DNA of 64,000 nucleotides, from assembly GCA_051313645.2 (NCBI GenBank), contig JBNRSN020000012.1, forward strand, positions 68,696,001 through 68,760,000, given 5' to 3'. The notes under the pieces are model-generated. The model did no database searches, had not been told where the DNA came from, and saw only the letters and a program-made list of their open reading frames with translations. This DNA is from Centroscyllium fabricii (Eukaryota). This document shows positions 2,807-50,389 of the stretch, piece after piece (position 1 is the first letter of the stretch; each line of letters starts with the position of its first letter). The position numbers were made by a program, and so were the translations under genes.

Positions 2807-3390
2807 TGTCATAGGTTGGCTCTTCCTCTTTAACTGGCAACTACCTTATTAGCTCTGCTTGGCAACCACCTCGTTAGCTCTACTGCTCGCACCTGATTGA
2901 ACAGCCCAGAGTCACCAGTGACAATCAGGAGCTGTATTTAAACCCCTGTTTTCTACCCAGTGGTTGCCAGATCGTTTTGTGCTTTCTGACTGAGGTACCT
3001 GTGTTTGTTCTTAGCTCTCTTATCCTGCCTGTTCGAGATACTGACCTGCTTTCTGGATCGTGGACTCTCTTCTGCCTGACCCCATTTGGATTTGTCGCTT
3101 TCGTGGACTGACTACCCAGTATTGATCTGTTTTTGGAATTTGGATTCTCTTCTGCCTGACCCCGTTTGGATTTGTCACTTTCGTGGACTGACTACCCGGT
3201 ATTGATCTGTTTTTGGTATTTGGATTCTCTTCTGCCTGACCTCTGTTTTGGACTTGTTGCCTCTGTGAACTTTCTGCCTATATATCGACCCACTGTTACC
3301 AGTGTCTTCTACTGCTCAGAAATAAAGTAGTTTACTTCTACATATGCTGTTTCGGTGTATTGCATTTGGGCCCAATCTACACCCATTACA
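2807..3390 (+). mobile_element. Solo LTR (584 bp) with internal ~80-bp tandem repeats
   Basis: TG...CA ends; 5-bp TSD TTACG (2802-2806 and 3391-3395); TATTTAAA ~2935; AATAAA ~3320; repeated unit TGGA(C/T)TCTCTTCTGCCTGACCCC at ~3061, ~3141 and ~3221. Confidence 0.85.
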
Positions 3391-3909: not shown

Positions 3910-4415
3910 GTGCTCAAATGTAAGAAGTCACACACCAGATTATAGTCCAACAGTTTTATTTGAAATCACAAGCTTTCGGAGCGCTGCTCCTTTGTCAGGT
4001 GAAGTGAAGAGATGCACAGCATATACAGTCAGAAAACAATGCTCGCTGATTACAGGTAATTTTTCTAACTGCCCTTTATCACACCTCGGCAGAGAGATAA
4101 TCACAGCAATCAAAGGTGTGAATGGTGTCCAAACAGGTCAGTCAGGAAAACATTCCATCAAAGAACAATGAGGTGGGGGCACAAGGGGTCAAATGTTGCA
4201 GATGCTGGGGTCTGTACAAAAAACTAAATAGAAACCATAAATAAAATGATTTTTTTTTGCTGGAAATCACAGCAGGTCCTGCCGCATCTATGTAGAGAGA
4301 ACAAGCCAACGACGACGCGAGTCTGGATTACTCTACTTCAAGTTGGGTTACATGTCGCGTTACATGAAGCCAAGATCCCAGTTGAGGCCGTCCTCATGAC
4401 TGCGGTTGAAGCAGA
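3910..4415 (-). mobile_element. Penelope-like element 3' fragment with a mutated hammerhead motif
   Basis: Matches the 3' UTR of the Penelope copies at 16411/20228. The reverse complement of 3967-4001 reads CACCTGACAAAGGAGCAGCGCTCCGAAAGCTTGTG. A GIY-YIG C-terminal remnant (HEDGLNWDLGFM) lies near 4365-4400. Confidence 0.8.
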
Positions 4416-12490: not shown

Positions 12491-12908
12491 TTTCAGTGCC
12501 TCCACCCACCCTGATATCACTCCCTCAACAAGTACTGGGTGCTTTATTTCCTTCAGTCACTTCCTTATTCACGTCATTTGGTTTTCCAGTGGTTCTCTTG
12601 GGATGTCACTTGTTCAGAAAAGTCAAGGAGATTAGTCAAGCAACATATTTCCCTTCTAAAACTAGGTTGGGTATTATTACTGGATTATTTCTTGTACAAT
12701 CGACTGATGTTTTCCATTTAATTGGCGAAGTGTGAGTTTTTCATTATTGCAAACAAAAACAGGACAGAGCCAGGCAGCCCAGAGAAGCTCCATAGATAGC
12801 TTACACTGCTTCAGTTTGCTTTCTTTACACAAAATATCCTTTCGTTTGGCACCAGTGCAACTTAAAAATACTGACTTTCTTTATTTTACAGTGAACCACC
12901 TTTGTGCA

Positions 12909-13070
12909 ATGGCAGGAGAATCAAAACCCACAAGTAACCCCTTGGAACAGTTCATTTTGTTGTCTAGAAATGCCAAAGGTCCAGCATTAACTACCCTTAT
13001 TAGCCAAGTATTAGAGGCTCCAGGAGTTTTTGTTTTTGGTGAACTTCTGGAAACACCTAATATACAGGAG
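12909..13070 (+). CDS. COPS7B: COP9 signalosome subunit 7B, coding exon 1 (162 nt)
   Basis: [54 protein letters not shown] matches the CSN7 N-terminus; acceptor TTTTACAG ends at 12891; donor GTAAGA at 13071. Confidence 0.96.
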
Positions 13071-15080: not shown

Positions 15081-16410
15081 AAAGAGAAGGACTGGCCATT
15101 TGGGTGAGGTACTAAAGGACTGCCAGCACTCGGGAAATGTATAGCTGTATAACGTAATCCCCTCAGGAAAGCAAAGGAGAAAATGGGGCAGAGAGAACAA
15201 ACCTGTCAGCTGCCATGGGAAAGGGTTCAAACTTCTTGGTCTCCATGCAGGATGTTTCTGTGCAGTGTAGACTTAAAAGATGAGAGAAAATAAAGAGAAG
15301 CTATGTTCTTAAGAGAAACAGATTGCACATCACACCAGGTCTGGACTGTGATTTGGAACAAGTGGAGAAGAATCCCGAGTGGGAAATTTGATAATGAAGC
15401 CTGCCAGAGGAAATCGAAGAAAACACAATGGGAGTGAAGCAGAGACAAAAAGATCAGAAAGACACATATGAACAATAAAAAGTCTTAATGCTGCATCAGA
15501 CTAGAGATTGTGATTGGACAGAGGGAGTAATCGCGGCAGAAAGGAATACATTTATTAATTCGGCAGCGTGTATTGATATAAATTAGATAAAAAGGGGACA
15601 GGGGACAAAGGTTACAAAAAAGAAACCAAGCTAAGAAAGGAGCAGAGATTGTGAGAAAGCAAGTCTGAATGATTCTGTATTTCCTTCTAATGGTGGGAAC
15701 TGTACTAAATATTTGGCCCTGTCCTACATATTTGAATGATCACTAAAACACACAAGTCCATTATAGACTTTCAAGTATGGTAGTTCTAATTTTTCAGTTT
15801 TTAAAAAACATCCTCTTCATGTGGTGATGAAGATGATTTTCTTTTTAAAAACCGAGTAAACATAAAACGAATGGAAGCAGTTATCTCCTATTTGGGCAAT
15901 ATCTCTATGAAACATTGTGTGGTAGGGGTACTGTGCATGAGATGCTGTGTCACTGAACAAGAGGAAACATTTTAATTCCTTACCTTGACTTGCATTCACA
16001 CAAATGCATTCACACAAATGCTTCTATCAGATGGCAAAGTTCAGATGCTGGCCAGACTGTCTGGTGCAGCATCAAGCGGATAGGAGTAACACATCCGGTT
16101 ACATTTGAGCACCCTCTGATTATAGAGCATCAGCTACAGAGGCCATGAAGATGTCAGTTGTGCATCTGACCTTTAGTTGTTTCCATGTGTCGGCAAATGT
16201 ACAGAACAAGCGAGCTGGATTTCGTCCTGACTTATTGCACCTCATCCTCCGTCTTTCTCTCTCACTAATAACATTTTTATGTAATTAATTGCTTCCCTAA
16301 ATATACAATTTAATTTGAACCCATTGGCCTTACTTTTTTATTTGTTCATGGGATGTGGGCGGCACTGGCAAGGCCAGCATTTATTGCCCAACCCTAATTG
16401 CCCTTGAGAA

Positions 16411-18203
16411 ATGCAAGAAGTCACACAACACCAGATTATAGTCCAACGGTTTTATTTTAAATCACAAGCTTTCGGAGCGTCTGCCCCTTCGTCAGGTGGA
16501 CAGAGAGAGACTGACTTAAAGATCACATATCGGAGGAAGGGAGAAATCCGATCTCTTCCACATCTCACCCTAGAGACAGAGAGCACACAAAGGCATATTA
16601 ACATATTTTAACACCTCAGTCTGCGAGCAATGAGGCATAGTCGCAAGGGGGGTCAAATGCTGCAAAACACACAGAATGATTTAAAAAAAGGGAATTTCCT
16701 TACAAGACAAAAATGTCCCTAGTCCGGATGACTCTACGTCAGGCGGGACATCAAAGCAGTCCAAGATTTTCCAACATATCAAAAGGGTGCAGTCACAGGG
16801 TCAAATGTTAGTCTGCTGTAAATCCCACAGAATGATTTTTTTTATAAAAACCATGATTTTTCTTACTTAAAATCGCAGAACAAGCCGAAGATGGTTCGAG
16901 TCTGGATGACTCTACGTCAGGCGGGGTCACATGTAGCGTGACATAAACCCAATATCACGGTTGAGGCCGTGCTCATGGGTGCGGAACTTGGCAATCAGCC
17001 TCTGCTCGACGATTTTGCGTTGTGTATCTCGAAGGCCACCCTGGAGAATGCTCACCCGAAGATCGGAAGCTGAATGTCCTTGACCGCTGAAATGTTCCCC
17101 GACTGGGAGGGAACACTCCTGCCTGGCGATTGTTGCGCGGTGCCCGTTCATCCGTTGTCGTAGTGTCTGCATGGTCTCGCCGATGTATCCTTTCCTGCAA
17201 TGTATGAGGTAGACAACATTGGTCGAGTTACATGAGTATGTACCATGTACCTGGTGTGTTGTGTCCTCACGTGTGATGATGGTATCTGTGCTGATGATTT
17301 GGCACGTTTTGCAGAGGTTGCTGTGGCAGGGTTGTGTGGTGTCGTGGTTGCTGTTCTCCTGAAGGCTGGGTAATTTGCTGCGAACTATAGTCTGTTTGAG
17401 GTTAGGCGGCTGTTTGAAGGCGAGTAGTGGAGGCGCTGGGATGGCCTTAGCGAGGTGTTCGTCATCATCAATGACATGCTGAAGGCTGCGAAGAACATGG
17501 CGTAGTTTCTCCGCTCTGGGGAAGTACTGGACGACAAAGGGTACTCTGTTGGTTGTGTCCCGTGGTTGTCTTCTGAGGAGGTCTACGCGATTTTTCGTTG
17601 TGGCCCGTCGGAACTGTCGATCGATGAGTCGAGTGTCATACCCCGTTCTTACGAGGGCGTCTTTCAGTGTCTGTAGGAGTCCGTCGCGTTCCTCCTCATC
17701 TGAGCAGATCCTGTGTATTCGCAGGGCTTGTCCATAGGCGATGGCTTCTTTAACGTGGTTCGGGTGGAAGCTGGAGTAGTGGAGCATCCTGAGGTTGTCC
17801 GTGGGTTTGCGGTAGAGGGAAATGCTGAGGCGTCCGTTTTTGATGGAGATTCGTGTGTCCAAGAATGAAACCGATTCTGAGGAGTAGTCCATGGTGAGTT
17901 TGATGGTGGGATGGAACTTGTTTATGTTATCGTGTAGTCTTTTCAGTGATTCTTCACCGTGGGTCCACAGGAGGAAAATGTCGTCGATGTATCTGGTGTA
18001 TAGCGTTGGTTGGAGGTACTGTGTAGCGAAGAAGTCTTGCTCGAACTTGTGCATGAAGATGTTGGCGTACTGGGGTGCGAATTTGGTCCCCATGGCTGTT
18101 CCGTGTGTTTGGGTTAAAAAATTGTTGTCGAAGGTGAAAACATTGTGGTCAAGGATGAAGCGGATGAGTTGTAGGATGATGTCTGGAGATTGGCTGTTGT
18201 TGG
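16411..18203 (-). mobile_element. Penelope-like retroelement, left arm (5'-truncated RT + GIY-YIG + 3' UTR)
   Basis: ORF 16927-18093: GTAMGTKFAP, RYIDDIF, FLD, YRKPT, NVVY...YIGET, GEHF, GLNRD; inverted copy of 18398-20190. Confidence 0.95.
16463..16498 (-). ncRNA. Minimal hammerhead ribozyme motif, inverted copy
   Basis: Exact reverse complement of 20104-20139. Confidence 0.78.
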
Positions 18204-20228
18204 CATCGAGGGCATCCTGAAACCCATCGTACAGAGAACCCCAAGCTTTTGTCGTGACACTACAGACTTCTTACAAAAACTCAGCACCCACGGACCAGTT
18301 GAACCAGGAACACTCCTTGCCACGATGGACGTCTCGGCACTCTACACCAGTATCCCCCACGATGACGGCATCACTGCGACAGCTTCAGTACTCAACACCA
18401 ACAACAGCCAATCTCCAGACATCATCCTACAACTCATCCGCTTCATCCTTGACCACAATGTTTTCACCTTCGACAACAATTTTTTTACCCAAACACACGG
18501 AACAGCCATGGGGACCAAATTCGCACCCCAGTACGCCAACATCTTCATGCACAAGTTTGAGCAAGACTTCTTCGCTACACAGTACCTCCAACCAACGCTA
18601 TACACCAGATACATCGACGACATTTTCCTCCTGTGGACCCACGGTGAAGAATCACTGAAAAGACTACACGATAACATAAACAAGTTCCATCCCACCATCA
18701 AAGTCACCATGGACTACTCCTCAGAATCGGTTTCATTCTTGGACACACGAATCTCCATCAAAAACGGACGCCTCAGCACTTCCCTCTACCGCAAACCCAC
18801 GGACAACCTCAGGATGCTCCACTACTCCAGCTTCCACCCGAACCACGTTAAAGAAGCCATCCCCTATGGAGAAGCCCTGCGAATACACAGGATCTGCTCA
18901 GATGAGGAGGAACGCGACGGACACCTACAGACACTGAAAGATGCCCTCGTAAGAACGGGGTATGACACTCGACTCATCGATCGACAGTTCCGACGGGCCA
19001 CAACGAAAAATCGCGTAGACCTCCTCAGAAGACAACCACGGGACACAACCAACAGAGTACCCTTTGTCGTCCAGTACTTCCCCGGAGCGGAGAAACTACG
19101 CCATGTTCTTCGCAGCCTTCAGCATGTCATTGATGATGACGAACACCTCGCTAAGGCCATTCCCGCGCCTCCACTACTCGCCTTCAAACAGCCGCCTAAC
19201 CTCAAACAGACTATAGTTCGCAGCAAATTACCCAGCCTTCAGGAGAACAGCAACCACGACACCACACAACCCTGCCACAGCAACCTCTGCAAAACGTGCC
19301 AAATCATCAGCACAGATACCATCATCACACATGACACAACACACCAGGTACATGGTACATACTCATGTAACTCGACCAATGTTGTCTACTTCATACATTG
19401 CAGGAAAGGATACATCGGCGAGACCATGCAGACACTACGACAACGGATGAACGGGCACCGCGCAACAATTGCCAGGCAGGAGTGTTCCCTCCCAGTCGGG
19501 GAACATTTCAGCGGTCAAGGACATTCAGCTTCCGATCTTCGGGTGAGCATTCTCCAGGGTGGCCTTCGAGATACACGACAACGCAAAATCGTCGAGCAGA
19601 GGCTGATTGCCAAGTTCCGCACCCATGAGCACGGCCTCAACCGTGATATTGGGTTTATGTCACGCTCCATGTGACCCCGCCTGACGTAGAGTCATCCAGA
19701 CTCGAACCATCTTCGGCTTGTTTTGCGATTTTAAGTAAGAAAAATCATGGTTTTAAAAAAAAAAATCATTCTGTGGGATTTACAGCAGACTAACATTTGA
19801 CCCTGTGACTGCACGCTTTTGATATGTTGGAAAATCTTGGACTGCTTTGATGTCCCGCCTGACGTAGAGTCATCCGGACTAGGGACATTTTTGTCTTGTA
19901 AGGAAATTCCCTTTTTTTAAATCATTCTGTGTGTTTTGCAGCATTTGACCCCCCCTTGCGACTGTGCCTCATTGCTCGCAGACTGAGGTGTTAAAATATG
20001 TTAATATGCCTTTGTGTGCTCTCTGTCTCTAGGGTGAGATGTGGAAGAGATCGGATTTCTCCCTTCCTCCGATATGTGATCTTTAAGTCAGTCTCTCTCT
20101 GTCCACCTGACGAAGGGGCAGACGCTCCGAAAGCTTGTGATTTAAAATAAAACAGTTGGACTATAATCTGGTGTTGTGTGACTTCTTGCATTTGTCCACC
20201 CCAGTCCAACACCGGCACCTCCACATTA
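18204..20228 (+). mobile_element. Penelope-like retroelement, right arm (5'-truncated RT + GIY-YIG + 3' UTR)
   Basis: Open frame to 19674 with MDVSALYTSIP, GTAMG, RYIDD and GIY-YIG motifs. The whole 16411-20228 block is bounded by TGCCCTTGAGAA at 16399-16410 and 20229-20240. Confidence 0.95.
20104..20139 (+). ncRNA. Minimal type I hammerhead ribozyme motif (Penelope-associated)
   Basis: CAC-CUGACGA-A-GGGGC-AGAC-GCUCC-GAAA-GC-UU-GUG: core boxes intact, 5-bp stem II, palindromic AAGCUU in place of stem III, CAC/GUG stem I. Confidence 0.78.
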
Positions 20229-20903
20229 TGCCCTTGAGAAGGTGGTGGTGAGCCACCGCCTTAAACCGCTGCAGGCTGTGGTGAAGATACTCCCACAGTG
20301 CTGTTAGGGAGGCAGTTCCAGGATTTTGACCCAGCGACCATGAAGGATTAGCGATATACTTCCAAGTCAGGATGGTGTGTGACTTGGAGGGGAACTTGAA
20401 GTTGGTGGTGTTCCCATGCGCCTGCTGCCCTTGTCCTTCCAGATGGTAGAGGTCGCGGGTTTGGGAGGTGCTGCCAAAGAAACTGTGGCGAGTTGCTGCA
20501 GCGCATCTTGTAGATCCAGGGCTGTCAGCCTCCTGAACTCTAAAAAGAAACTCCGGCACCTGCATGCCTGATAATGTACTTTACTGTATGCAATTTGCAT
20601 GTTATTTATTTATTTTATTTGCACTACTCTCGGGAGAGTCGAGTCTTCGTCTCGTTGTATTGTACTAGTACTCTGCAATGACAATAAAACTTGAATTGAA
20701 TTGAAGATGGTATACAGCCTTGGTCCAAACATGGACAAAAGAGCTAAATTCCCCACCCAGAGTACATTCTGTGCCCTTGCTACTCTCAGTGCTTCTTCCA
20801 AGTGGTGATCAACATGGAGGAGTACTGATTCATCAGCTGAGGAAGGGCTGTAGGTGGTAATCAGCAGGAGGTTTCCTTGCCCATGCTTGACCTGAAGCCA
20901 TGA
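20229..20903 (-). mobile_element. Pieces of a CR1-group LINE (host of the Penelope and Rex insertions), with a Rex-type 3' tail on + at ~20520-20705
   Basis: 20229-20515 continues 16340-16410 and matches 46520-46875; 20750-20903 matches the APE region at 49175-49325 and resumes at 22687; tail AATAAAACTTGAATTGAATTGAA. Confidence 0.75.
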
Positions 20904-24390: not shown

Positions 24391-24466
24391 CTGGCTAATG
24401 GATCACATGCTGCCTACTTTCAATTATTGAACCTATTTGCATATGGAACATATCCTGACTATTTAG
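24391..24466 (+). CDS. COPS7B: COPS7B coding exon 2 (76 nt)
   Basis: [25 protein letters not shown]; acceptor TTCTCCCCAG; donor GTAAGG at 24467; phase 0 in, phase 1 out. Confidence 0.95.
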
Positions 24467-27990: not shown

Positions 27991-29063
27991 GGGGGGGAAT
28001 TTCATATCCCCGTGAGGCGGGGTTTTCGGCAGCTCGGCCGACAAAATAGCGCAACCAGTGGGTCGCGACCCTCCCCGCCGCTTTATCATTTTCCCCCGCC
28101 CTGAAACCTTCCCGCCGGCGGGGATGGGTTGTCACCTCGTTAAGGGTCCTTAATTGGCATGTTTAATGGCATTTTAAGGGCCCTCAGCCATTTTGAGCCG
28201 TTTCCCACCCAAACCCCGTCACCTTAAACCCCGCTGGGCGAAACCCAGTGGGAGCACAGCGCTGGTCATTACTTTCTCCTTCAAGGAGTGTTTCCATGGG
28301 AACTGTCAACAACCAGTGCTGGAACTGTCAATCAAGCTCCTCGCAGCCCCGCTGCAGCCTGACTCGATTGAGTCAATTACTACCCGCTGCCGGCGGCGGT
28401 GATTTAACAACTCAATTAAATTAAAATTGCGTGGGCTTCCCAGGTCTTTGGGCGGGCGGGACAGGAACCCGCCCCGACCAATCCCCGCCAGATTCCCGCA
28501 CTTCCGGCAAAATCCCCCCACGGCGGCAGCGGGTGGTAATTGACTCAATCGAGTCAGGCTGCAGCGGGGCTGCGAGGAGCTTGATTGACAGTTCCAGCAC
28601 TGGTTGTTGACAGTTCCCATGGAAACACTCCACTGTGACATCACAGTCGAGTGGAACCAGTGGGAAAGGTCAAGTGCTGGTGACTGACAGGTGGGCGGGC
28701 GGGCTCTGAATCCTTGGCAGCTCGCACCAGCTGTGAGGAAATGTGCAAAGCTGAGATTTCTCAGTTTTTGCCCACAGCTGGTGCAGCCACCACGGAGTCA
28801 CTTACTCCTCTAAGGTGCTGGAGGCATGCCAAGCATTTGGCAGCATGTCCTTCGCACCTTGAAGGAGAAAATAATGACCAGCGCTGCCCAGCGGGGTTTA
28901 AGGTGACGGGTTAGGGTGGGTTTCAGGGCGGGGGAAAATGATAAAGCGGCGGGGATCCGGCCGGGGTGGGGGGGGGGGGGGAGTGTCGCGACCCACTGGT
29001 TGTGCTATTTTGCCTGCCGAGCCACCGAAAACCCCGCCTCACGGGGACATGAAATTCCCCCCC
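27991..29063. mobile_element. PIF/Harbinger-like non-autonomous element with long terminal and internal inverted repeats
   Basis: GGGGGGGAATTTCAT...ATGAAATTCCCCCCC termini with extended sub-terminal symmetry; internal inverted pair ~28285-28400 / ~28520-28631; splits a Penelope-derived repeat (27920-27990 / 29064-29096). Confidence 0.85.
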
Positions 29064-33671: not shown

Positions 33672-36600
33672 CCCCTCTTCCCCCCCCCCCCCCGTCCCCT
33701 CTTCGCCCCCGTCCCCTCTTCGCCTTCGCCCCCGTCCCCTCTTCGCCCCCGTCCCCTCTTCGCCCCCGTCCCCTCTTCGCCCCCGTCCCCTCTTCGCCCC
33801 CGTCCCCTCTTCGCCCCCGTCCCCTCTTCGCCCCCGTCCCCTCTTCGCCCCCGTCCCCTCTTCGCCCCCGTCCCCTCTTCGCCCCCGTCCCCTCTTCGCC
33901 CCCGTCCCCTCTTCGCCCCCGTCCCCTCTTCGCCCCCGTCCCCTCTTCGCCCCCGTCCCCTCTTCGCCCCCGTCCCCTCTTCGCCCCCGTCCCCTCTTCG
34001 CCCCCGTCCCCTCTTCGCCCCCGTCCCCTCTTCGCCCCCGTCCCCTCTTCGCCCCCGTCCCCTCTTCGCCCCCGTCCCCTCTTCGCCCCCGTCCCCTCTT
34101 CGCCCCCGTCCCCTCTTCGCCCCCGTCCCCTCTTCGCCCCCGTCCCCTCTTCGCCCCCGTCCCCTCTTCGCCCCCGTCCCCTCTTCGCCCCCGTCCCCTC
34201 TTCGCCCCGTCCCCTCTTCGCCCCCGTCCCCTCTTCGCCCCCGTCCCCTCTTCGCCCCCGTCCCCTCTTCGCCCCCGTCCCCTCTTCGCCCCCGTCCCCT
34301 CTTCGCCCCCGTCCCCTCTTCGCCCCCGTCCCCTCTTCGCCCCCGTCCCCTCTTCGCCCCCGTCCCCTCTTCGCCCCCGTCCCCTCTTCGCCCCCGTCCC
34401 CTCTTCGCCCCCGTCCCCTCTTCGCCCCCGTCCCCTCTTCGCCCCCGTCCCCTCTTCGCCCCCGTCCCCTCTTCGCCCCCGTCCCCTCTTCGCCCCCGTC
34501 CCCTCTTCGCCCCCGTCCCCTCTTCGCCCCCGTCCCCTCTTCGCCCCCGTCCCCTCTTCGCCCCCGTCCCCTCTTCGCCCCCGTCCCCTCTTCGCCCCGT
34601 CCCCTCTTCGCCCCGTCCCCTCTTCGCCCCCGTCCCCTCTTCGCCCCCGTCCCCTCTTCGCCCCCGTCCCCTCTTCGCCCCCGTCCCCTCTTCGCCCCCG
34701 TCCCCTCTTCGCCCCCGTCCCCTCTTCGCCCCCGTCCCCTCTTCGCCCCCGTCCCCTCTTCGCCCCCGTCCCCTCTTCGCCCCCGTCCCCTCTTCGCCCC
34801 CGTCCCCTCTTCGCCCCCGTCCCCTCTTCGCCCCCGTCCCCTCTTCGCCCCCGTCCCCTCTTCGCCCCCGTCCCCTCTTCGCCCCCGTCCCCTCTTCGCC
34901 CCCGTCCCCTCTTCGCCCCCGTCCCCTCTTCGCCCCCGTCCCCTCTTCGCCCCCGTCCCCTCTTCGCCCCCGTCCCCTCTTCGCCCCCGTCCCCTCTTCG
35001 CCCCCGTCCCCTCTTCGCCCCCGTCCCCTCTTCGCCCCCGTCCCCTCTTCGCCCCCGTCCCCTCTTCGCCCCCGTCCCCTCTTCGCCCCCGTCCCCTCTT
35101 CGCCCCCGTCCCCTCTTCGCCCCCGTCCCCTCTTCGCCCCCGTCCCCTCTTCGCCCCCGTCCCCTCTTCGCCCCCGTCCCCTCTTCGCCCCCGTCCCCTC
35201 TTCGCCCCCGTCCCCTCTTCGCCCCCGTCCCCTCTTCGCCCCCGTCCCCTCTTCGCCCCCGTCCCCTCTTCGCCCCCGTCCCCTCTTCGCCCCCGTCCCC
35301 TCTTCGCCCCCGTCCCCTCTTCGCCCCCGTCCCCTCTTCGCCCCCGTCCCCTCTTCGCCCCCGTCCCCTCTTCGCCCCCGTCCCCTCTTCGCCCCCGTCC
35401 CCTCTTCGCCCCCGTCCCCTCTTCGCCCCCGTCCCCTCTTCGCCCCCGTCCCCTCTTCGCCCCCGTCCCCTCTTCGCCCCCGTCCCCTCTTCGCCCCCGT
35501 CCCCTCTTCGCCCCCGTCCCCTCTTCGCCCCCGTCCCCTCTTCGCCCCCGTCCCCTCTTCGCCCCCGTCCCCTCTTCGCCCCCGTCCCCTCTTCGCCCCC
35601 GTCCCCTCTTCGCCCCCGTCCCCTCTTCGCCCCCGTCCCCTCTTCGCCCCCGTCCCCTCTTCGCCCCCGTCCCCTCTTCGCCCCCGTCCCCTCTTCGCCC
35701 CCGTCCCCTCTTCGCCCCCGTCCCCTCTTCGCCCCCGTCCCCTCTTCGCCCCCGTCCCCTCTTCGCCCCCGTCCCCTCTTCGCCCCCGTCCCCTCTTCGC
35801 CCCCGTCCCCTCTTCGCCCCCGTCCCCTCTTCGCCCCCGTCCCCTCTTCGCCCCCGTCCCCTCTTCGCCCCCGTCCCCTCTTCGCCCCCGTCCCCTCTTC
35901 GCCCCCGTCCCCTCTTCGCCCCCGTCCCCTCTTCGCCCCCGTCCCCTCTTCGCCCCCGTCCCCTCTTCGCCCCCGTCCCCTCTTCGCCCCCGTCCCCTCT
36001 TCGCCCCCGTCCCCTCTTCGCCCCCGTCCCCTCTTCGCCCCCGTCCCCTCTTCGCCCCCGTCCCCTCTTCGCCCCCGTCCCCTCTTCGCCCCCGTCCCCT
36101 CTTCGCCCCCGTCCCCTCTTCGCCCCCGTCCCCTCTTCGCCCCCGTCCCCTCTTCGCCCCCGTCCCCTCTTCGCCCCCGTCCCCTCTTCGCCCCCGTCCC
36201 CTCTTCGCCCCCGTCCCCTCTTCGCCCCCGTCCCCTCTTCGCCCCCGTCCCCTCTTCGCCCCCGTCCCCTCTTCGCCCCCGTCCCCTCTTCGCCCCCGTC
36301 CCCTCTTCGCCCCCGTCCCCTCTTCGCCCCCGTCCCCTCTTCGCCCCCGTCCCCTCTTCGCCCCCGTCCCCTCTTCGCCCCCGTCCCCTCTTCGCCCCCG
36401 TCCCCTCTTCGCCCCCGTCCCCTCTTCGCCCCCGTCCCCTCTTCGCCCCCGTCCCCTCTTCGCCCCCGTCCCCTCTTCGCCCCCGTCCCCTCTTCGCCCC
36501 CGTCCCCTCTTCGCCCCCGTCCCCTCTTCGCCCCCGTCCCCTCTTCGCCCCCGTCCCCTCTTCGCCCCCGTCCCCTCTTCGCCCCCGTCCCCTCTTCGCC

Positions 36601-39600
36601 CCCGTCCCCTCTTCGCCCCCGTCCCCTCTTCGCCCCCGTCCCCTCTTCGCCCCCGTCCCCTCTTCGCCCCCGTCCCCTCTTCGCCCCCGTCCCCTCTTCG
36701 CCCCCGTCCCCTCTTCGCCCCCGTCCCCTCTTCGCCCCCGTCCCCTCTTCGCCCCCGTCCCCTCTTCGCCCCCGTCCCCTCTTCGCCCCCGTCCCCTCTT
36801 CGCCCCCGTCCCCTCTTCGCCCCCGTCCCCTCTTCGCCCCCGTCCCCTCTTCGCCCCCGTCCCCTCTTCGCCCCCGTCCCCTCTTCGCCCCCGTCCCCTC
36901 TTCGCCCCCGTCCCCTCTTCGCCCCCGTCCCCTCTTCGCCCCCGTCCCCTCTTCGCCCCCGTCCCCTCTTCGCCCCCGTCCCCTCTTCGCCCCCGTCCCC
37001 TCTTCGCCCCCGTCCCCTCTTCGCCCCCGTCCCCTCTTCGCCCCCGTCCCCTCTTCGCCCCCGTCCCCTCTTCGCCCCCGTCCCCTCTTCGCCCCCGTCC
37101 CCTCTTCGCCCCCGTCCCCTCTTCGCCCCCGTCCCCTCTTCGCCCCCGTCCCCTCTTCGCCCCCGTCCCCTCTTCGCCCCCGTCCCCTCTTCGCCCCCGT
37201 CCCCTCTTCGCCCCCGTCCCCTCTTCGCCCCCGTCCCCTCTTCGCCCCCGTCCCCTCTTCGCCCCCGTCCCCTCTTCGCCCCCGTCCCCTCTTCGCCCCC
37301 GTCCCCTCTTCGCCCCCGTCCCCTCTTCGCCCCCGTCCCCTCTTCGCCCCCGTCCCCTCTTCGCCCCCGTCCCCTCTTCGCCCCCGTCCCCTCTTCGCCC
37401 CCGTCCCCTCTTCGCCCCCGTCCCCTCTTCGCCCCCGTCCCCTCTTCGCCCCCGTCCCCTCTTCGCCCCCGTCCCCTCTTCGCCCCCGTCCCCTCTTCGC
37501 CCCCGTCCCCTCTTCGCCCCCGTCCCCTCTTCGCCCCCGTCCCCTCTTCGCCCCCGTCCCCTCTTCGCCCCCGTCCCCTCTTCGCCCCCGTCCCCTCTTC
37601 GCCCCCGTCCCCTCTTCGCCCCCGTCCCCTCTTCGCCCCCGTCCCCTCTTCGCCCCCGTCCCCTCTTCGCCCCCGTCCCCTCTTCGCCCCCGTCCCCTCT
37701 TCGCCCCCGTCCCCTCTTCGCCCCCGTCCCCTCTTCGCCCCCGTCCCCTCTTCGCCCCCGTCCCCTCTTCGCCCCCGTCCCCTCTTCGCCCCCGTCCCCT
37801 CTTCGCCCCCGTCCCCTCTTCGCCCCCGTCCCCTCTTCGCCCCCGTCCCCTCTTCGCCCCCGTCCCCTCTTCGCCCCCGTCCCCTCTTCGCCCCCGTCCC
37901 CTCTTCGCCCCCGTCCCCTCTTCGCCCCCGTCCCCTCTTCGCCCCCGTCCCCTCTTCGCCCCCGTCCCCTCTTCGCCCCCGTCCCCTCTTCGCCCCCGTC
38001 CCCTCTTCGCCCCCGTCCCCTCTTCGCCCCCGTCCCCTCTTCGCCCCCGTCCCCTCTTCGCCCCCGTCCCCTCTTCGCCCCCGTCCCCTCTTCGCCCCCG
38101 TCCCCTCTTCGCCCCCGTCCCCTCTTCGCCCCCGTCCCCTCTTCGCCCCCGTCCCCTCTTCGCCCCCGTCCCCTCTTCGCCCCCGTCCCCTCTTCGCCCC
38201 CGTCCCCTCTTCGCCCCCGTCCCCTCTTCGCCCCCGTCCCCTCTTCGCCCCCGTCCCCTCTTCGCCCCCGTCCCCTCTTCGCCCCCGTCCCCTCTTCGCC
38301 CCCGTCCCCTCTTCGCCCCCGTCCCCTCTTCGCCCCCGTCCCCTCTTCGCCCCCGTCCCCTCTTCGCCCCCGTCCCCTCTTCGCCCCCGTCCCCTCTTCG
38401 CCCCCGTCCCCTCTTCGCCCCCGTCCCCTCTTCGCCCCCGTCCCCTCTTCGCCCCCGTCCCCTCTTCGCCCCCGTCCCCTCTTCGCCCCCGTCCCCTCTT
38501 CGCCCCCGTCCCCTCTTCGCCCCCGTCCCCTCTTCGCCCCCGTCCCCTCTTCGCCCCCGTCCCCTCTTCGCCCCCGTCCCCTCTTCGCCCCCGTCCCCTC
38601 TTCGCCCCGTCCCCTCTTCGCCCCGTCCCCTCTTCGCCCCGTCCCCTCTTCGCCCCCGTCCCCTCTTCGCCCCCGTCCCCTCTTCGCCCCCGTCCCCTCT
38701 TCGCCCCCGTCCCCTCTTCGCCCCCGTCCCCTCTTCGCCCCCGTCCCCTCTTCGCCCCCGTCCCCTCTTCGCCCCCGTCCCCTCTTCGCCCCCGTCCCCT
38801 CTTCGCCCCCGTCCCCTCTTCGCCCCCGTCCCCTCTTCGCCCCCGTCCCCTCTTCGCCCCCGTCCCCTCTTCGCCCCCGTCCCCTCTTCGCCCCCGTCCC
38901 CTCTTCGCCCCCGTCCCCTCTTCGCCCCCGTCCCCTCTTCGCCCCCGTCCCCTCTTCGCCCCCGCCCTCTTCGCCCCCGTCCCCTCTTCGCCCCCGTCCC
39001 CTCTTCGCCCCCGTCCCCTCTTCGCCCCCGTCCCCTCTTCGCCCCCGTCCCCTCTTCGCCCCCGTCCCCTCTTCGCCCCCGTCCCCTCTTCGCCCCCGTC
39101 CCCTCTTCGCCCCCGTCCCCTCTTCGCCCCCGTCCCCTCTTCGCCCCCGTCCCCTCTTCGCCCCCGTCCCCTCTTCGCCCCCGTCCCCTCTTCGCCCCCG
39201 TCCCCTCTTCGCCCCCGTCCCCTCTTCGCCCCCGTCCCCTCTTCGCCCCCGTCCCCTCTTCGCCCCCGTCCCCTCTTCGCCCCCGTCCCCTCTTCGCCCC
39301 CGTCCCCTCTTCGCCCCCGTCCCCTCTTCGCCCCCGTCCCCTCTTCGCCCCGTCCCCTCTTCGCCCCGTCCCCTCTTCGCCCCCGTCCCCTCTTCGCCCC
39401 CGTCCCCTCTTCGCCCCGTCCCCTCTTCGCCCCGTCCCCTCTTCGCCCCCGTCCCCTCTTCGCCCCCGTCCCCTCTTCGCCCCCGTCCCCTCTTTGCCCC
39501 GCCCCCTCTTCCCCCCCTCTTCCTCCGCCCCCTCTTCCTTCCCCCCTCCCTCCCCCCCTCTTGCCCCCCTCTCCCTCCCCCTCCCCCCCTCTTCCCCGTC

Positions 39601-40825
39601 CCCTCTTCCCCCCCGCCCCCTCTTCCCCTGTCCCCTCTCTTCCCCCCGCCCCCTCTTCCCCCCGCCTCCTCTTCCCCGCCCCCTCTTCCCCATCCCCTCT
39701 CCCTCCCCCCTCTTCCCCCGTCCTCTCTTCCGCCCTGTCCTCTCTTCCGCCCCGCCCCCTCTTCCCTCCGCCCACTCTTCCCTCCGCCCACTCTTCCCTC
39801 CGCCCCCTCTTCCCTCCGCCCCCTCTTCCCTCCGCCCCCTCTTCCCTCCGCCCCCTCTTCCCTCCGTCCCCTCTTCCCTCCATCCCTCTTCCCTCCGTCC
39901 CTCTTCCCTCCGTCCCTCTTCCCTCCGTCCCTCTTCCCCCCGTCCCTCTTCCCCCCGTCCCTCTTCCCCCGTCCCTCTTCCCCCCGTCCCTCTTCCCCCC
40001 GTCCCTCTTCCCCCCGTCCCTCTTCCCCCCGTCCCTCTTCCCCCCGTCCCTCTTCCCCCCGTCCCTCTTCCCCCCGTCCCTCTTCCCCCCGTCCCTCTTC
40101 CCCCCGTCCCTCTTCCCCCCCGTCCCTCTTCCCCCCGTCCCTCTTCCCCCCGTCCCTCTTCCCCCCGTCCCTCTTCCCCGCGTCCCTCTTCCCCCGTCCC
40201 TCTTCCCCCCGTCCCTCTTCCCCCCGTCCCTCTTCCCCCGTCCCTCTTCCCCCCGTCCCTCTTCCCCCCGTCCCTCTTCCCCCCGTCCCTCTTCCCCCCG
40301 TCCCTCTTCCCCCCGTCCCTCTTCCCCCCGTCCCTCTTCCCCCCGTCCCTCTTCCCCCCGTCCCTCTTCCCCCCGTCCCTCTTCCCCCCGTCCCTCTTCC
40401 CCCCGTCCCTCTTCCCCCCGTCCCTCTTCCCCCCGTCCCTCTTCCCCCCGTCCCTCTTCCCCCCGTCCCTCTTCCCCCCGTCCCTCTTCCCCCCCTCCCT
40501 CTTCCCCCCCTCCCTCTTCCCCCGTCCCTCTTCCCCCGTCCCTCTTCCCCCGTCCCTCTTCCCCGTCCCCTCTTCCCCCGTCCCCTCTTCCCCCATCCCC
40601 TCTTCCCCCGTCCCCTCTTCCCCCTCCCCCGTCCCCTCTTCCCCCGTCCCCTCTTCCCCCGTCCCCTCTTCCCCCGTCCCCTCTTCCCCCGTCCCCTCTT
40701 CCACCCGTCCCCTCTTCCACCCGTCCCCTCTTCCACCCGTCCCCTCTTCCCCCCGTCCCCTCTTCCCCCCGTCCCCTCTTCCCCCCGCCCCCTCTTCCCC
40801 CCGCCCCCTCTTCCCCCCGCTCCCC
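33672..40825. repeat. ~7.1-kb C-rich minisatellite: 17-bp unit GTCCCCTCTTCGCCCCC (~340 copies, to ~39490), then 15/16-bp variants
   Basis: Directly visible periodicity. Copy number is estimated as array length / 17. The distal block uses GTCCCTCTTCCCCCC (15 bp) and GTCCCCTCTTCCCCC-type units. Confidence 0.98.
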
Positions 40826-42481
40826 TGAGTTTGTTGTTTCCTAGTTGCTGTTTCCTGATTTGCCTAGTTACCTCTTCTCTCTTTTCAAGCTTGATCGTGT
40901 CCTGCACTATAACTTTAAGCCTACTAGAATTAATTAATCCAGATGTGCTGATTGGAACATAGTTAGAAATTTCAAACTTTCTGAGCAGTGGGTGCCTCCC
41001 AAATGTTTGATCTGCAACATCTTCAGGCGTGACTTCTGCTCAAGTGAAATTTTCCATTTGGTAAGTATCCTCTCTATACAATGTCTTCAGCAGCAGCTTA
41101 ACCAATCCAAATGTTGGTGTACAAGAACAAAGCATCAGAATGCTAACACTGCTGATTGTATTTATTGCTTCATACATTATCTGCTTATCATGTACAATAT
41201 TACTTATGTTGAAATACTATTGGTTATCCCCCTAATATGTATTCATTCTCTCCACAGATGACCCTGGGCCATCAGGAAGTTAAGCACATGGCACAACCCG
41301 CAGAAACACAAACCACATATGCATAAGCAGCGCAACTGTGCCATGCACCAGCATCAAACACAAGGCTTCTGTGCTTCAGAAAGTGTAGAATCACATGACC
41401 CTTCACTAAGCACTGATGATGTAGATTTTGTGTTGGTTGTAAATTAATTGGAGAAGCCAGTGACGTGCCACAAGTGCTCATGTACTGAAGTGCTAATAGA
41501 GGGACAGAGGTTAGGGCATTACAAACCAAGCAGTCTTTTGTGATTGATGTATGCTATCAGATTGACTGGCATCTTTACTCCCATGTGTAAAAAAATTCTT
41601 ATCGGTACTTTTACTACTGTCTACATTTTCATGGAAATAGGTGAGCCTACTGCCTTCAGCAGTTCATCAGGTGAATGAGGTTCCTGGCCGAATGCAACAG
41701 AAATGGCCTCCAGGAAATTGGAATCAGCCAAAAGCCTGGAAATTCAGGGGCACTGTGACTTTCACAAAGCAATTTGAGTCAATCAAGAAACCCTTAAATA
41801 ATACTCTATCATGCTACATAACTCCCAAACGAGATGTTGGAGAGCCTGAATTTCCAAATGCAGGTCTTCTTTGTTCAGCTTAGAGAGGACATTAAAGCAC
41901 TTGGATACCCTCCCTAGGGTCAGGTCTCTTTGTTGTTGTCCTTTATGCCCCCCACATCACATTCCTTCTCTGAGAGGATGATGGATGCAGTAATTTCTGG
42001 TCCCAGGATCATTACATGTAGAAGGTGGGCTTCCTGGCATTTGCCAGAGAGTCTGAGGGTAGTAGGGAAAAAAAGACATCCATTGCATTGCCTGTGCAAA
42101 AATTGAGTTCAAACTTTAAATTTTCCCCCTGGCAACTTCTGAATACTGGATATTGCTGGCCCTGGGGCATAACAGATGGATCCTGCGCCCAGCACCCCTG
42201 CAGTAGAAGTGACCGGAATCATAGCCGAGGTTATGTTTCCCTCATTCTGTAAGTCTTACGGGCTGGCACATTTTCTGCTGCCAGAGGAAAGCAGCAGTGA
42301 TGTATATCCACATGTTGCTGTCCACCTTCATGTGCCCCAGATCCACTGAGAAATTGGGGGAGGAGCAGGAGGCAGACAGCCTAGCCCTTTCTGTCCTGTT
42401 GAACTGTTGTAAAAAACAAATGGTTATAAATACTGGCCAAAATTAGGGGATTAAACATTATATACAGTCTGCACCAGCACA

Positions 42482-50154: not shown

Positions 50155-50260
50155 GTGCGATTGTTGTCAAGCAGTTCTGCTGGGGATTGAGCAGCAGGTC
50201 GTCCGCGTAAATCAGTATAAGCAAGGCCAAGCAAAAACTCAGCAGCAGGTAGAAAGTGAG
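50155..50260 (+). CDS. COPS7B: COPS7B coding exon 5 (106 nt)
   Basis: (W)CDCCQAVLLGIEQQVVRVNQYKQGQAKTQQQVESE; acceptor CTTAACAG; donor GTAAGT at 50261. Confidence 0.95.
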
Positions 50261-50389
50261 GTAAGTTATGAAGATAAACAAGAAATGACCATTAGACCCA
50301 TCAATCCTGCTTCTTCCACAGAACATGTACAGTTTACTTTAATATGGACAGTAGCGAACCTATTTAATCTCTTGACGGGGATTTGTCAT

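What the first reader, a model, noticed from the sequence alone, without database searches (positions are those of the whole stretch)
16399..20240. Head-to-head inverted Penelope dimer inserted as one unit: a ~1.8-kb-arm palindrome in COPS7B intron 2
Seen: 16411-18203 is the reverse complement of ~18398-20190, around a ~194-bp unique spacer. Both 3' ends face outward, both RT/GIY-YIG frames are still open, and one 12-bp TSD (TGCCCTTGAGAA) flanks the whole block, which splits a LINE tail cleanly. Known: Penelope elements are reported in tandem and inverted arrangements; L1 twin priming gives non-overlapping inversions. Inference: both target nicks were primed at or near the 3' end of the RNA and the two cDNAs were joined, which differs from classical twin priming. 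The COPS7B pre-mRNA would then carry a ~1.8-kb dsRNA stem, a substrate for ADAR or Dicer and a possible siRNA source against the family.
Basis: partly seen in the sequence, partly recalled or inferred. Interest (0 to 1): 0.72.

Follow-up and report, generated by a model that had tools for sequence, protein, structure and literature searches.

The report
Ordinary head-to-head Penelope-like retroelement insertion
Two cut-short copies of a Penelope-like jumping gene sit head to head in a COPS7 intron as one insertion, a layout already in print and common in this genome, and the copies suggest both halves were likely copied from two fixed start points on one RNA.

Summary
The palindrome is real: arms 16411-18203 and 18398-20194 are 98.4% alike, and one 12-bp TSD splits a LINE end. 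It is not unusual. The element is an endonuclease-bearing Penelope-like element (PLE), Neptune-type by its linker motif. An inverted copy with a one-sided 30-40-nt tail is its published layout (PMC3846280, PMC8557442). In an unbiased sample, 58 of 100 family 3' ends lay in such pairs. The scan has noted this before (79 notes in at least 18 genomes). Useful extra: all 69 TSD-bounded pairs carry one tailed and one tail-less arm. Either arm can be longer, arms share template alleles, and arm lengths are coupled. With published in-vitro data (PMC11167929) this favours both target ends being primed at two fixed sites of one RNA. Fold-back copying is not excluded. The ADAR/siRNA idea was untestable here and is not specific to this locus.

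The parts
16399..16410 (.). Left copy of the 12-bp target-site duplication TGCCCTTGAGAA
16411..18203 (-). Left arm: 5'-truncated PLE copy ending at the tail-less ('N') 3' site
16463..16498 (-). Minimal hammerhead-like core in the left pLTR (read by eye; no Rfam hit)
   Evidence: negative; PMC4209133 passages
16927..18203 (-). Open but start-less RT-thumb-linker-GIY-YIG frame, lacking RT motif A
17180..17197 (-). Site of the 15-bp in-frame deletion in the GIY-YIG core, left arm
18204..18397 (+). 194-nt loop: 5' extension of the right arm; blunt head-to-head junction at 18203/18204
18204..20228 (+). Right arm: 5'-truncated PLE copy ending at the tailed ('T') 3' site
18204..19674 (+). Open but start-less RT to GIY-YIG frame with a C-x4-C-xx-C linker
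19401..19418 (+). Site of the same 15-bp deletion, right arm
20104..20139 (+). Minimal hammerhead-like core in the right pLTR (read by eye; not the MFE fold)
   Evidence: negative
20193..20228 (+). 36-nt tail, present on this arm only
20229..20240 (.). Right copy of the TSD
16330..16410 (-). 3' end of the host LINE-like repeat split by the insertion (continues at 20241)
12892..13070 (+). COPS7 first coding exon (ATG at 12909), upstream of the host intron
24391..24466 (+). Next COPS7 exon, downstream of the host intron

Best explanation
This is one insertion of a Penelope-like retroelement, made of two 5'-truncated head-to-head copies inside one 12-bp target duplication, and it likely arose when both cut target ends primed reverse transcription at two fixed sites on one element RNA. 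Shown: single TSD; one tailed and one tail-less arm; arms from the same template lineage; junction unique to the locus. Inferred: the endonuclease leaves two 3' ends about 12 nt apart. One primes at the tail end and the other about 38 nt upstream. Both cDNAs extend on the same RNA, which would need strand displacement or sequential use. They stop at coupled positions (here 194 nt apart), their 3' ends join with 0-5 nt of microhomology, and each is copied across. The insert is a likely dead copy; in the host pre-mRNA its arms would form a long stem of untested consequence.
For: Tail rule: of 51 head-to-head pairs among fetched long loci, 41 have a TSD and all 41 are T+N; 3 TT and 3 NN pairs have no TSD, and 4 T+N pairs have none. 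In the unbiased set, 29 of 29 pairs are T+N and 28 have a TSD. Independent choice of site at 50:50 gives 0.5^69, about 2e-21. Either arm may reach further 5': T 16, N 12, equal 2 of 30 simple units; T 9, N 13, unassigned 6 of 28. A tailed short arm cannot be a plain DNA copy of a tail-less long arm. Same template: arms differ at family-polymorphic sites 0.71/kb against 17.7/kb for arms of different loci, and share rare alleles 2.29 against 0.09/kb (29 pairs). Coupled lengths: 16 of 28 within 15 nt against 5.1 expected (p 2e-5, Spearman 0.82). Literature: the anole PLE protein nicks and extends both strands, starts at two sites flanking the tail, and is a predicted dimer (PMC11167929, parts 1-2 of 4 read).
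Against: No call separates one RNA from two RNAs of one source held by an asymmetric dimer; the null mixes subfamilies. In the long-copy set the coupling is weak (8 of 27 within 100 nt against 4.1, p 0.035; not significant at 50 or 200 nt). Very short loops (19 of 29 at 25 nt or less) fit fold-back equally well. Both arms here share a 15-bp deletion with no close sibling elsewhere: the 8 other exact-pattern carriers are 5-11% away. This model must assign it to a rare or lost source copy. Shared CpG decays exceed a naive expectation (15 against 2.4). Strand displacement on one RNA is assumed, not shown.
Confidence: 0.6

Rival explanations
1. Leader fold-back. One nick primes a long cDNA whose 3' end folds back and copies itself; the sense copy then anneals to a short cDNA primed at the other nick, so one arm is mostly a DNA copy of the other.
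For: Tiny loops dominate the unbiased set (median 13 nt). It explains the 15-bp deletion on both arms here and a shared private 39-bp deletion in L135. Self-priming was proposed from junction palindromes (PMC3846280, passages). Of 8 other informative deletion carriers, 6 have the deletion in the shorter arm only.
Against: In all 8 other units where both arms cover this deletion hot spot, only one arm is deleted (6, plus L124 and L048), and 2 are longer-arm-only. This counts only if the deletions arise during reverse transcription, which was not supported (8 of 60 near a 5' end against 2 of 30 controls). Loops of 246-2288 nt in 17 of 30 long units, mostly with little microhomology where it could be read. 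No asymmetry of imperfect pairing towards the longer arm (score 3.4 against 3.3).
Confidence: 0.25
2. Two RNA molecules from the same source copy, one per subunit of an asymmetric dimer, each primed at its own site.
For: Fits the T+N rule if the dimer is asymmetric, and fits shared alleles if one source dominates a cell. A dimer is predicted (PMC11167929).
Against: It does not explain coupled arm lengths unless both stop at a shared RNA 5' end. It predicts more mixed-subfamily units than the 17 polymorphic differences in 24 kb.
Confidence: 0.1
3. Two independent insertions, later homogenised by conversion; or a fold-back assembly artefact.
For: The two shared private changes here (a CpG transition and the deletion) lie 14 bp apart, as one conversion tract would. 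No contig bridging the centre was listed.
Against: One TSD, no TSD at the centre, and the same layout in 68 other units. Arm-specific private changes outnumber shared ones 107 to 7. An artefact would not add a one-sided tail or 21 substitutions. A short local conversion tract within a single insertion remains possible.
Confidence: 0.05

Closest known systems
EN+ Penelope-like insertions with an inverted 5'-truncated copy and one-sided tail (Arkhipova et al. 2013, PMC3846280; Craig et al. 2021, PMC8557442; passages read)
   Same: Head-to-head copies, tail on one end only, 9-12-bp TSD around the whole unit.
   Different: Here both arms are 1.8-2.0 kb rather than pLTR-sized. The strict one-tail rule and the length coupling are counted here; I did not find them counted in the passages read.
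Anolis Poseidon (PAc) in vitro (Frangieh et al. 2024, PMC11167929; parts 1-2 of 4 read)
   Same: Two RT start sites flanking the tail, both strands nicked and extended, AT-rich targets (TSD GC 0.33 here).
   Different: The parts read do not address how inverted units form. This family carries the C-x4-C-xx-C linker that Poseidon lacks.
L1 twin priming
   Same: Two target 3' ends primed on one RNA, giving an inversion inside one TSD.
   Different: L1 gives mostly non-overlapping pieces with a variable internal second site. Here the second site is fixed about 38 nt from the first and the arms overlap almost wholly.
Neptune-clade PLEs (PMC8557442, passages)
   Same: C-terminal GIY-YIG with two internal cysteines, and a CX2-5CxxC linker between RT and endonuclease.
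   Different: No tree was built; the assignment rests on the motif alone.

Membership tests
EN+ Penelope-like elements | RT followed by a C-terminal GIY-YIG endonuclease in one ORF | tested here: met
   RVT_1 hit. VVY..C...C..YIGET and downstream R/H/E/N read in family copy L083. Pfam gave no GIY-YIG hit, so the endonuclease call is by motif.
EN+ Penelope-like elements | [quoted passage not shown] | tested here: met
   Present in the family (the commonest form). The second Cys is deleted in both arms of this copy.
EN+ Penelope-like elements | pLTR overlapping the ORF start, partial tandems, 30-40-nt tail | tested here: met
   Tail runs into the ORF start in the tandem copy L048; 36-nt tail on one arm.
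EN+ Penelope-like elements | Hammerhead motif in the pLTR | tested here: inconclusive
   Core boxes seen by eye at 20104-20139. No Rfam match; not the MFE structure, z -0.87.
EN+ Penelope-like elements | RT groups with PLE and telomerase RTs | not tested
   No tree built.
Neptune clade | CX2-5CxxC linker between RT and endonuclease | tested here: met
   C-HSNL-C-KT-C in both arms; definition from PMC8557442.
Neptune clade | Phylogenetic placement, against Nematis | not tested
   No reference sequences fetched.
Penelope/Poseidon clade | Absence of the CX2-5CxxC linker | tested here: not met
   Linker present.
Classical L1 twin-priming product | Non-overlapping inverted and direct pieces (recalled) | tested here: not met
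   Arms overlap over 1.8 kb.
Autonomous PLE copy | Full ORF with start codon and intact endonuclease | tested here: not met
   About 400 and 465 codons missing; 15-bp deletion in both arms.

The most novel reading that the evidence does not exclude
PLE inverted insertions come from a fixed-site, overlapping form of twin priming: the two target ends start at the two tail-flanking sites of one RNA and both copy the same template. That would explain the tail, the one-tail rule (69 of 69) and the coupled arm lengths together, and would make arm divergence an LTR-like clock for thousands of insertions. This locus, with a rare deletion on both arms, is a natural marker that both halves came from one molecule.
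Probability: 0.5. Interest if true: 0.55.

Novelty: new member of a known kind. Interest (0 to 1): 0.27.

Why it matters
The locus itself is an ordinary, likely dead insertion. Its value is as one of many data points on an open question, how PLEs make inverted repeats: PMC3846280 proposes self-priming on an antisense template, PMC8557442 proposes endonuclease resolution for the tail, and PMC11167929 leaves the later steps unvalidated. The one-tail rule and length coupling narrow the models and suggest a simple two-barcode test. Extrapolating 29 pairs per 100 ends to 51,373 exact ends gives roughly 15,000 units in this genome. About 670 may have both arms reaching the endonuclease region (4 unfetched pairs per 100 of 16,865). 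That is a large potential load of intronic dsRNA, untested here.

Tried and rejected
Imperfect (G-T) pairing at the junction: this locus shows a 7-base run, but 15 clean junctions show no asymmetry; rejected as general evidence. The hot-spot deletion as an RT-time event near 5' ends: 8 of 60 against 2 of 30; not supported. The shared deletion as a sibling sub-lineage: the other carriers are 5-11% away; rejected. Recurrent short-arm start points (reference positions 3047, 3116): taken as alignment limits against diverged 3' UTRs and the conserved ribozyme core, not as RNA ends. Independent reads: Logan contigs of 2 samples of the best-matching organism listed no piece bridging 18203/18204; a hole proves nothing and the allele state is unknown. 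No RNA holder listed, so expression, editing and small RNAs were not examined. Rfam: no match. A genome-wide count of tailed ends was not obtained; tail status comes from fetched loci only. Literature: 5 searches. 'Penelope + twin priming + inverted' gave 2 papers that look unrelated by listing. Evgen'ev and Arkhipova 2005 and Arkhipova 2006 were not read, and no supplements were read, so a double-priming model may be in print unseen.

Full report
Observation. The window holds one long inverted repeat: 16406-18203 against 18398-20196, 98.4%, with 21 substitutions and three indels. TGCCCTTGAGAA flanks the block at 16399-16410 and 20229-20240, and removing the block restores a LINE-like end found three more times in the window. 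The insert lies between COPS7 exons 12892-13070 and 24391-24466 (PF18392 at 50156-50266). The B paralogue label is recalled, not tested.

Anatomy. The left arm (16411-18203, minus strand) ends at the tail-less site; the right arm (18204-20228) carries a further 36-nt tail. The 194-nt centre is the right arm's own 5' extension, joined bluntly. Both frames are open and match RVT_1 but lack about 400 and 465 N-terminal codons against a full-length copy. Both lack 15 bp that encode the second cysteine of the GIY-YIG core. A C-x4-C-xx-C linker points to the Neptune type, since Penelope/Poseidon lack it (PMC8557442, passages). A minimal hammerhead core is visible by eye in each pLTR, without Rfam or folding support.

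How common. A 27-nt pre-tail word occurs 51,373 times exactly in the 7.2-Gb genome; 58 of the first 100 listed form 29 head-to-head pairs. All 29 have one tailed and one tail-less arm, and 28 have a TSD. Among the fetched long loci plus this one, 51 outward-facing pairs were found: 41 T+N with TSD, 4 T+N without, and 3 TT and 3 NN all without. Single-arm insertions with a TSD also exist for both end types. Maximally extended TSDs are 11-14 bp in 35 of 41 and AT-rich. The layout is published: an inverted 5'-truncated copy, with a tail at one end and a TSD around the unit (PMC3846280 and PMC8557442, passages). The scan has recorded it in 79 notes from at least 18 genomes, and 24 notes in this genome fit a similar look-up.

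Mechanism, shown. (a) The two ends of a TSD-bounded unit are always different sites (69 of 69). (b) Either arm can reach further 5': 16 T, 12 N, 2 equal of 30 simple units, after dropping 11 composite or unmappable ones; 9 T, 13 N, 6 unassigned of 28, with L149 dropped. (c) Arms come from one template lineage: 0.71 against 17.7 polymorphic differences per kb, and 2.29 against 0.09 shared rare alleles per kb (29 pairs against 1437 cross-locus pairs; the null mixes subfamilies). (d) Arm lengths are coupled in the unbiased, mostly short set (16 of 28 within 15 nt against 5.1, p 2e-5; unassigned units were scored as T-longer) and only weakly in the long set (8 of 27 within 100 nt against 4.1, p 0.035; p 0.05 and 0.08 at other cut-offs). 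(e) Clean junctions have 0-5 nt of microhomology; others have insertions or could not be mapped. (f) Arms mostly age separately: 107 arm-specific against 7 shared private changes, though shared CpG decays are 15 against 2.4 expected.

Mechanism, inferred. The anole PLE protein nicks and extends both strands and starts at two sites that bracket the tail (PMC11167929, parts 1-2 of 4 read). The simplest account is that both target ends prime on one RNA, one at each site, and the two cDNAs are joined head to head (0.6). A leader cDNA that folds back and meets a short second cDNA explains the tiny loops and the doubled deletion here (0.25). To test it I looked at recurrent deletions at the same hot spot. 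Of 60 fetched candidates (4 were not deletions at the site and one was unclear), 6 had a partner arm covering the site, and all 6 were deleted in one arm only: 5 shorter, 1 longer. L124 (shorter) and L048 (longer) agree. So this locus is the exception, 1 of 9. The test weighs against fold-back only if these deletions arise during reverse transcription, which I could not show. The doubled deletion is best read as inherited from a rare source copy or a short conversion tract; no close sibling was found among the 8 other exact-pattern carriers.

Host consequence. Transcription through the intron would give a stem of about 1.8 kb with perfect runs of up to 189 bp. Whether it is edited or diced was not examined. 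In the rotifer, PLE small RNAs are mostly 25-32-nt piRNA-like (PMC3846280, passages), not 21-22-nt siRNA. With hundreds of comparable long units by extrapolation, this one has no special claim.

Verdict. A real single insertion, likely dead, of a known layout: a new member of a known kind. Interest 0.27. The counted one-tail rule and length coupling are the useful extras, and similar readings were reached elsewhere in the scan.

Noticed in passing
window 33689-40826: A 7.1-kb array of a 17-bp C-rich unit (about 429 copies, 97% matches) inside a COPS7 intron; open in six frames.
   Followed up: no
window 19401-19418; genome-wide: A small inverted repeat between the GIY and YIG codons is a deletion hot spot: an 8-bp loss occurs 142 times exactly and 15-bp losses a few dozen times, against 16,865 matches of the downstream word that the 15-bp forms lack.
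   Followed up: partly
L048 2001-8797: A 6.8-kb unit: full-length tail-less copy plus an upstream partial tandem, head to head with a 2.5-kb tailed arm, inside one 13-bp TSD. It obeys the one-tail rule.
   Followed up: partly
L145 159-817: A mirrored unit of pLTR, tail and the first ~130 nt of the ORF fused to the 3' end, with the mirror point inside the tail; looks like an internally deleted non-autonomous derivative; no TSD found.
   Followed up: partly
window 3915-4405: An older, diverged short Penelope-like copy on the minus strand with tail-less end.
   Followed up: no
window 27991-29063: Nested inverted repeats (89-nt outer arms at 91%; 111-nt inner arms at 28285-28631 at 98%) unrelated to this family; possibly a foldback or MITE-like element.
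   Followed up: no
window 16411-20194: 12 of the 21 arm-to-arm substitutions are transversions, more than CpG-driven ageing would suggest; unexplained.
   Followed up: no
L059, L092: Units with loops of 0-1 nt; L059 turns on a natural 4-nt palindrome in the 3' UTR.
   Followed up: partly
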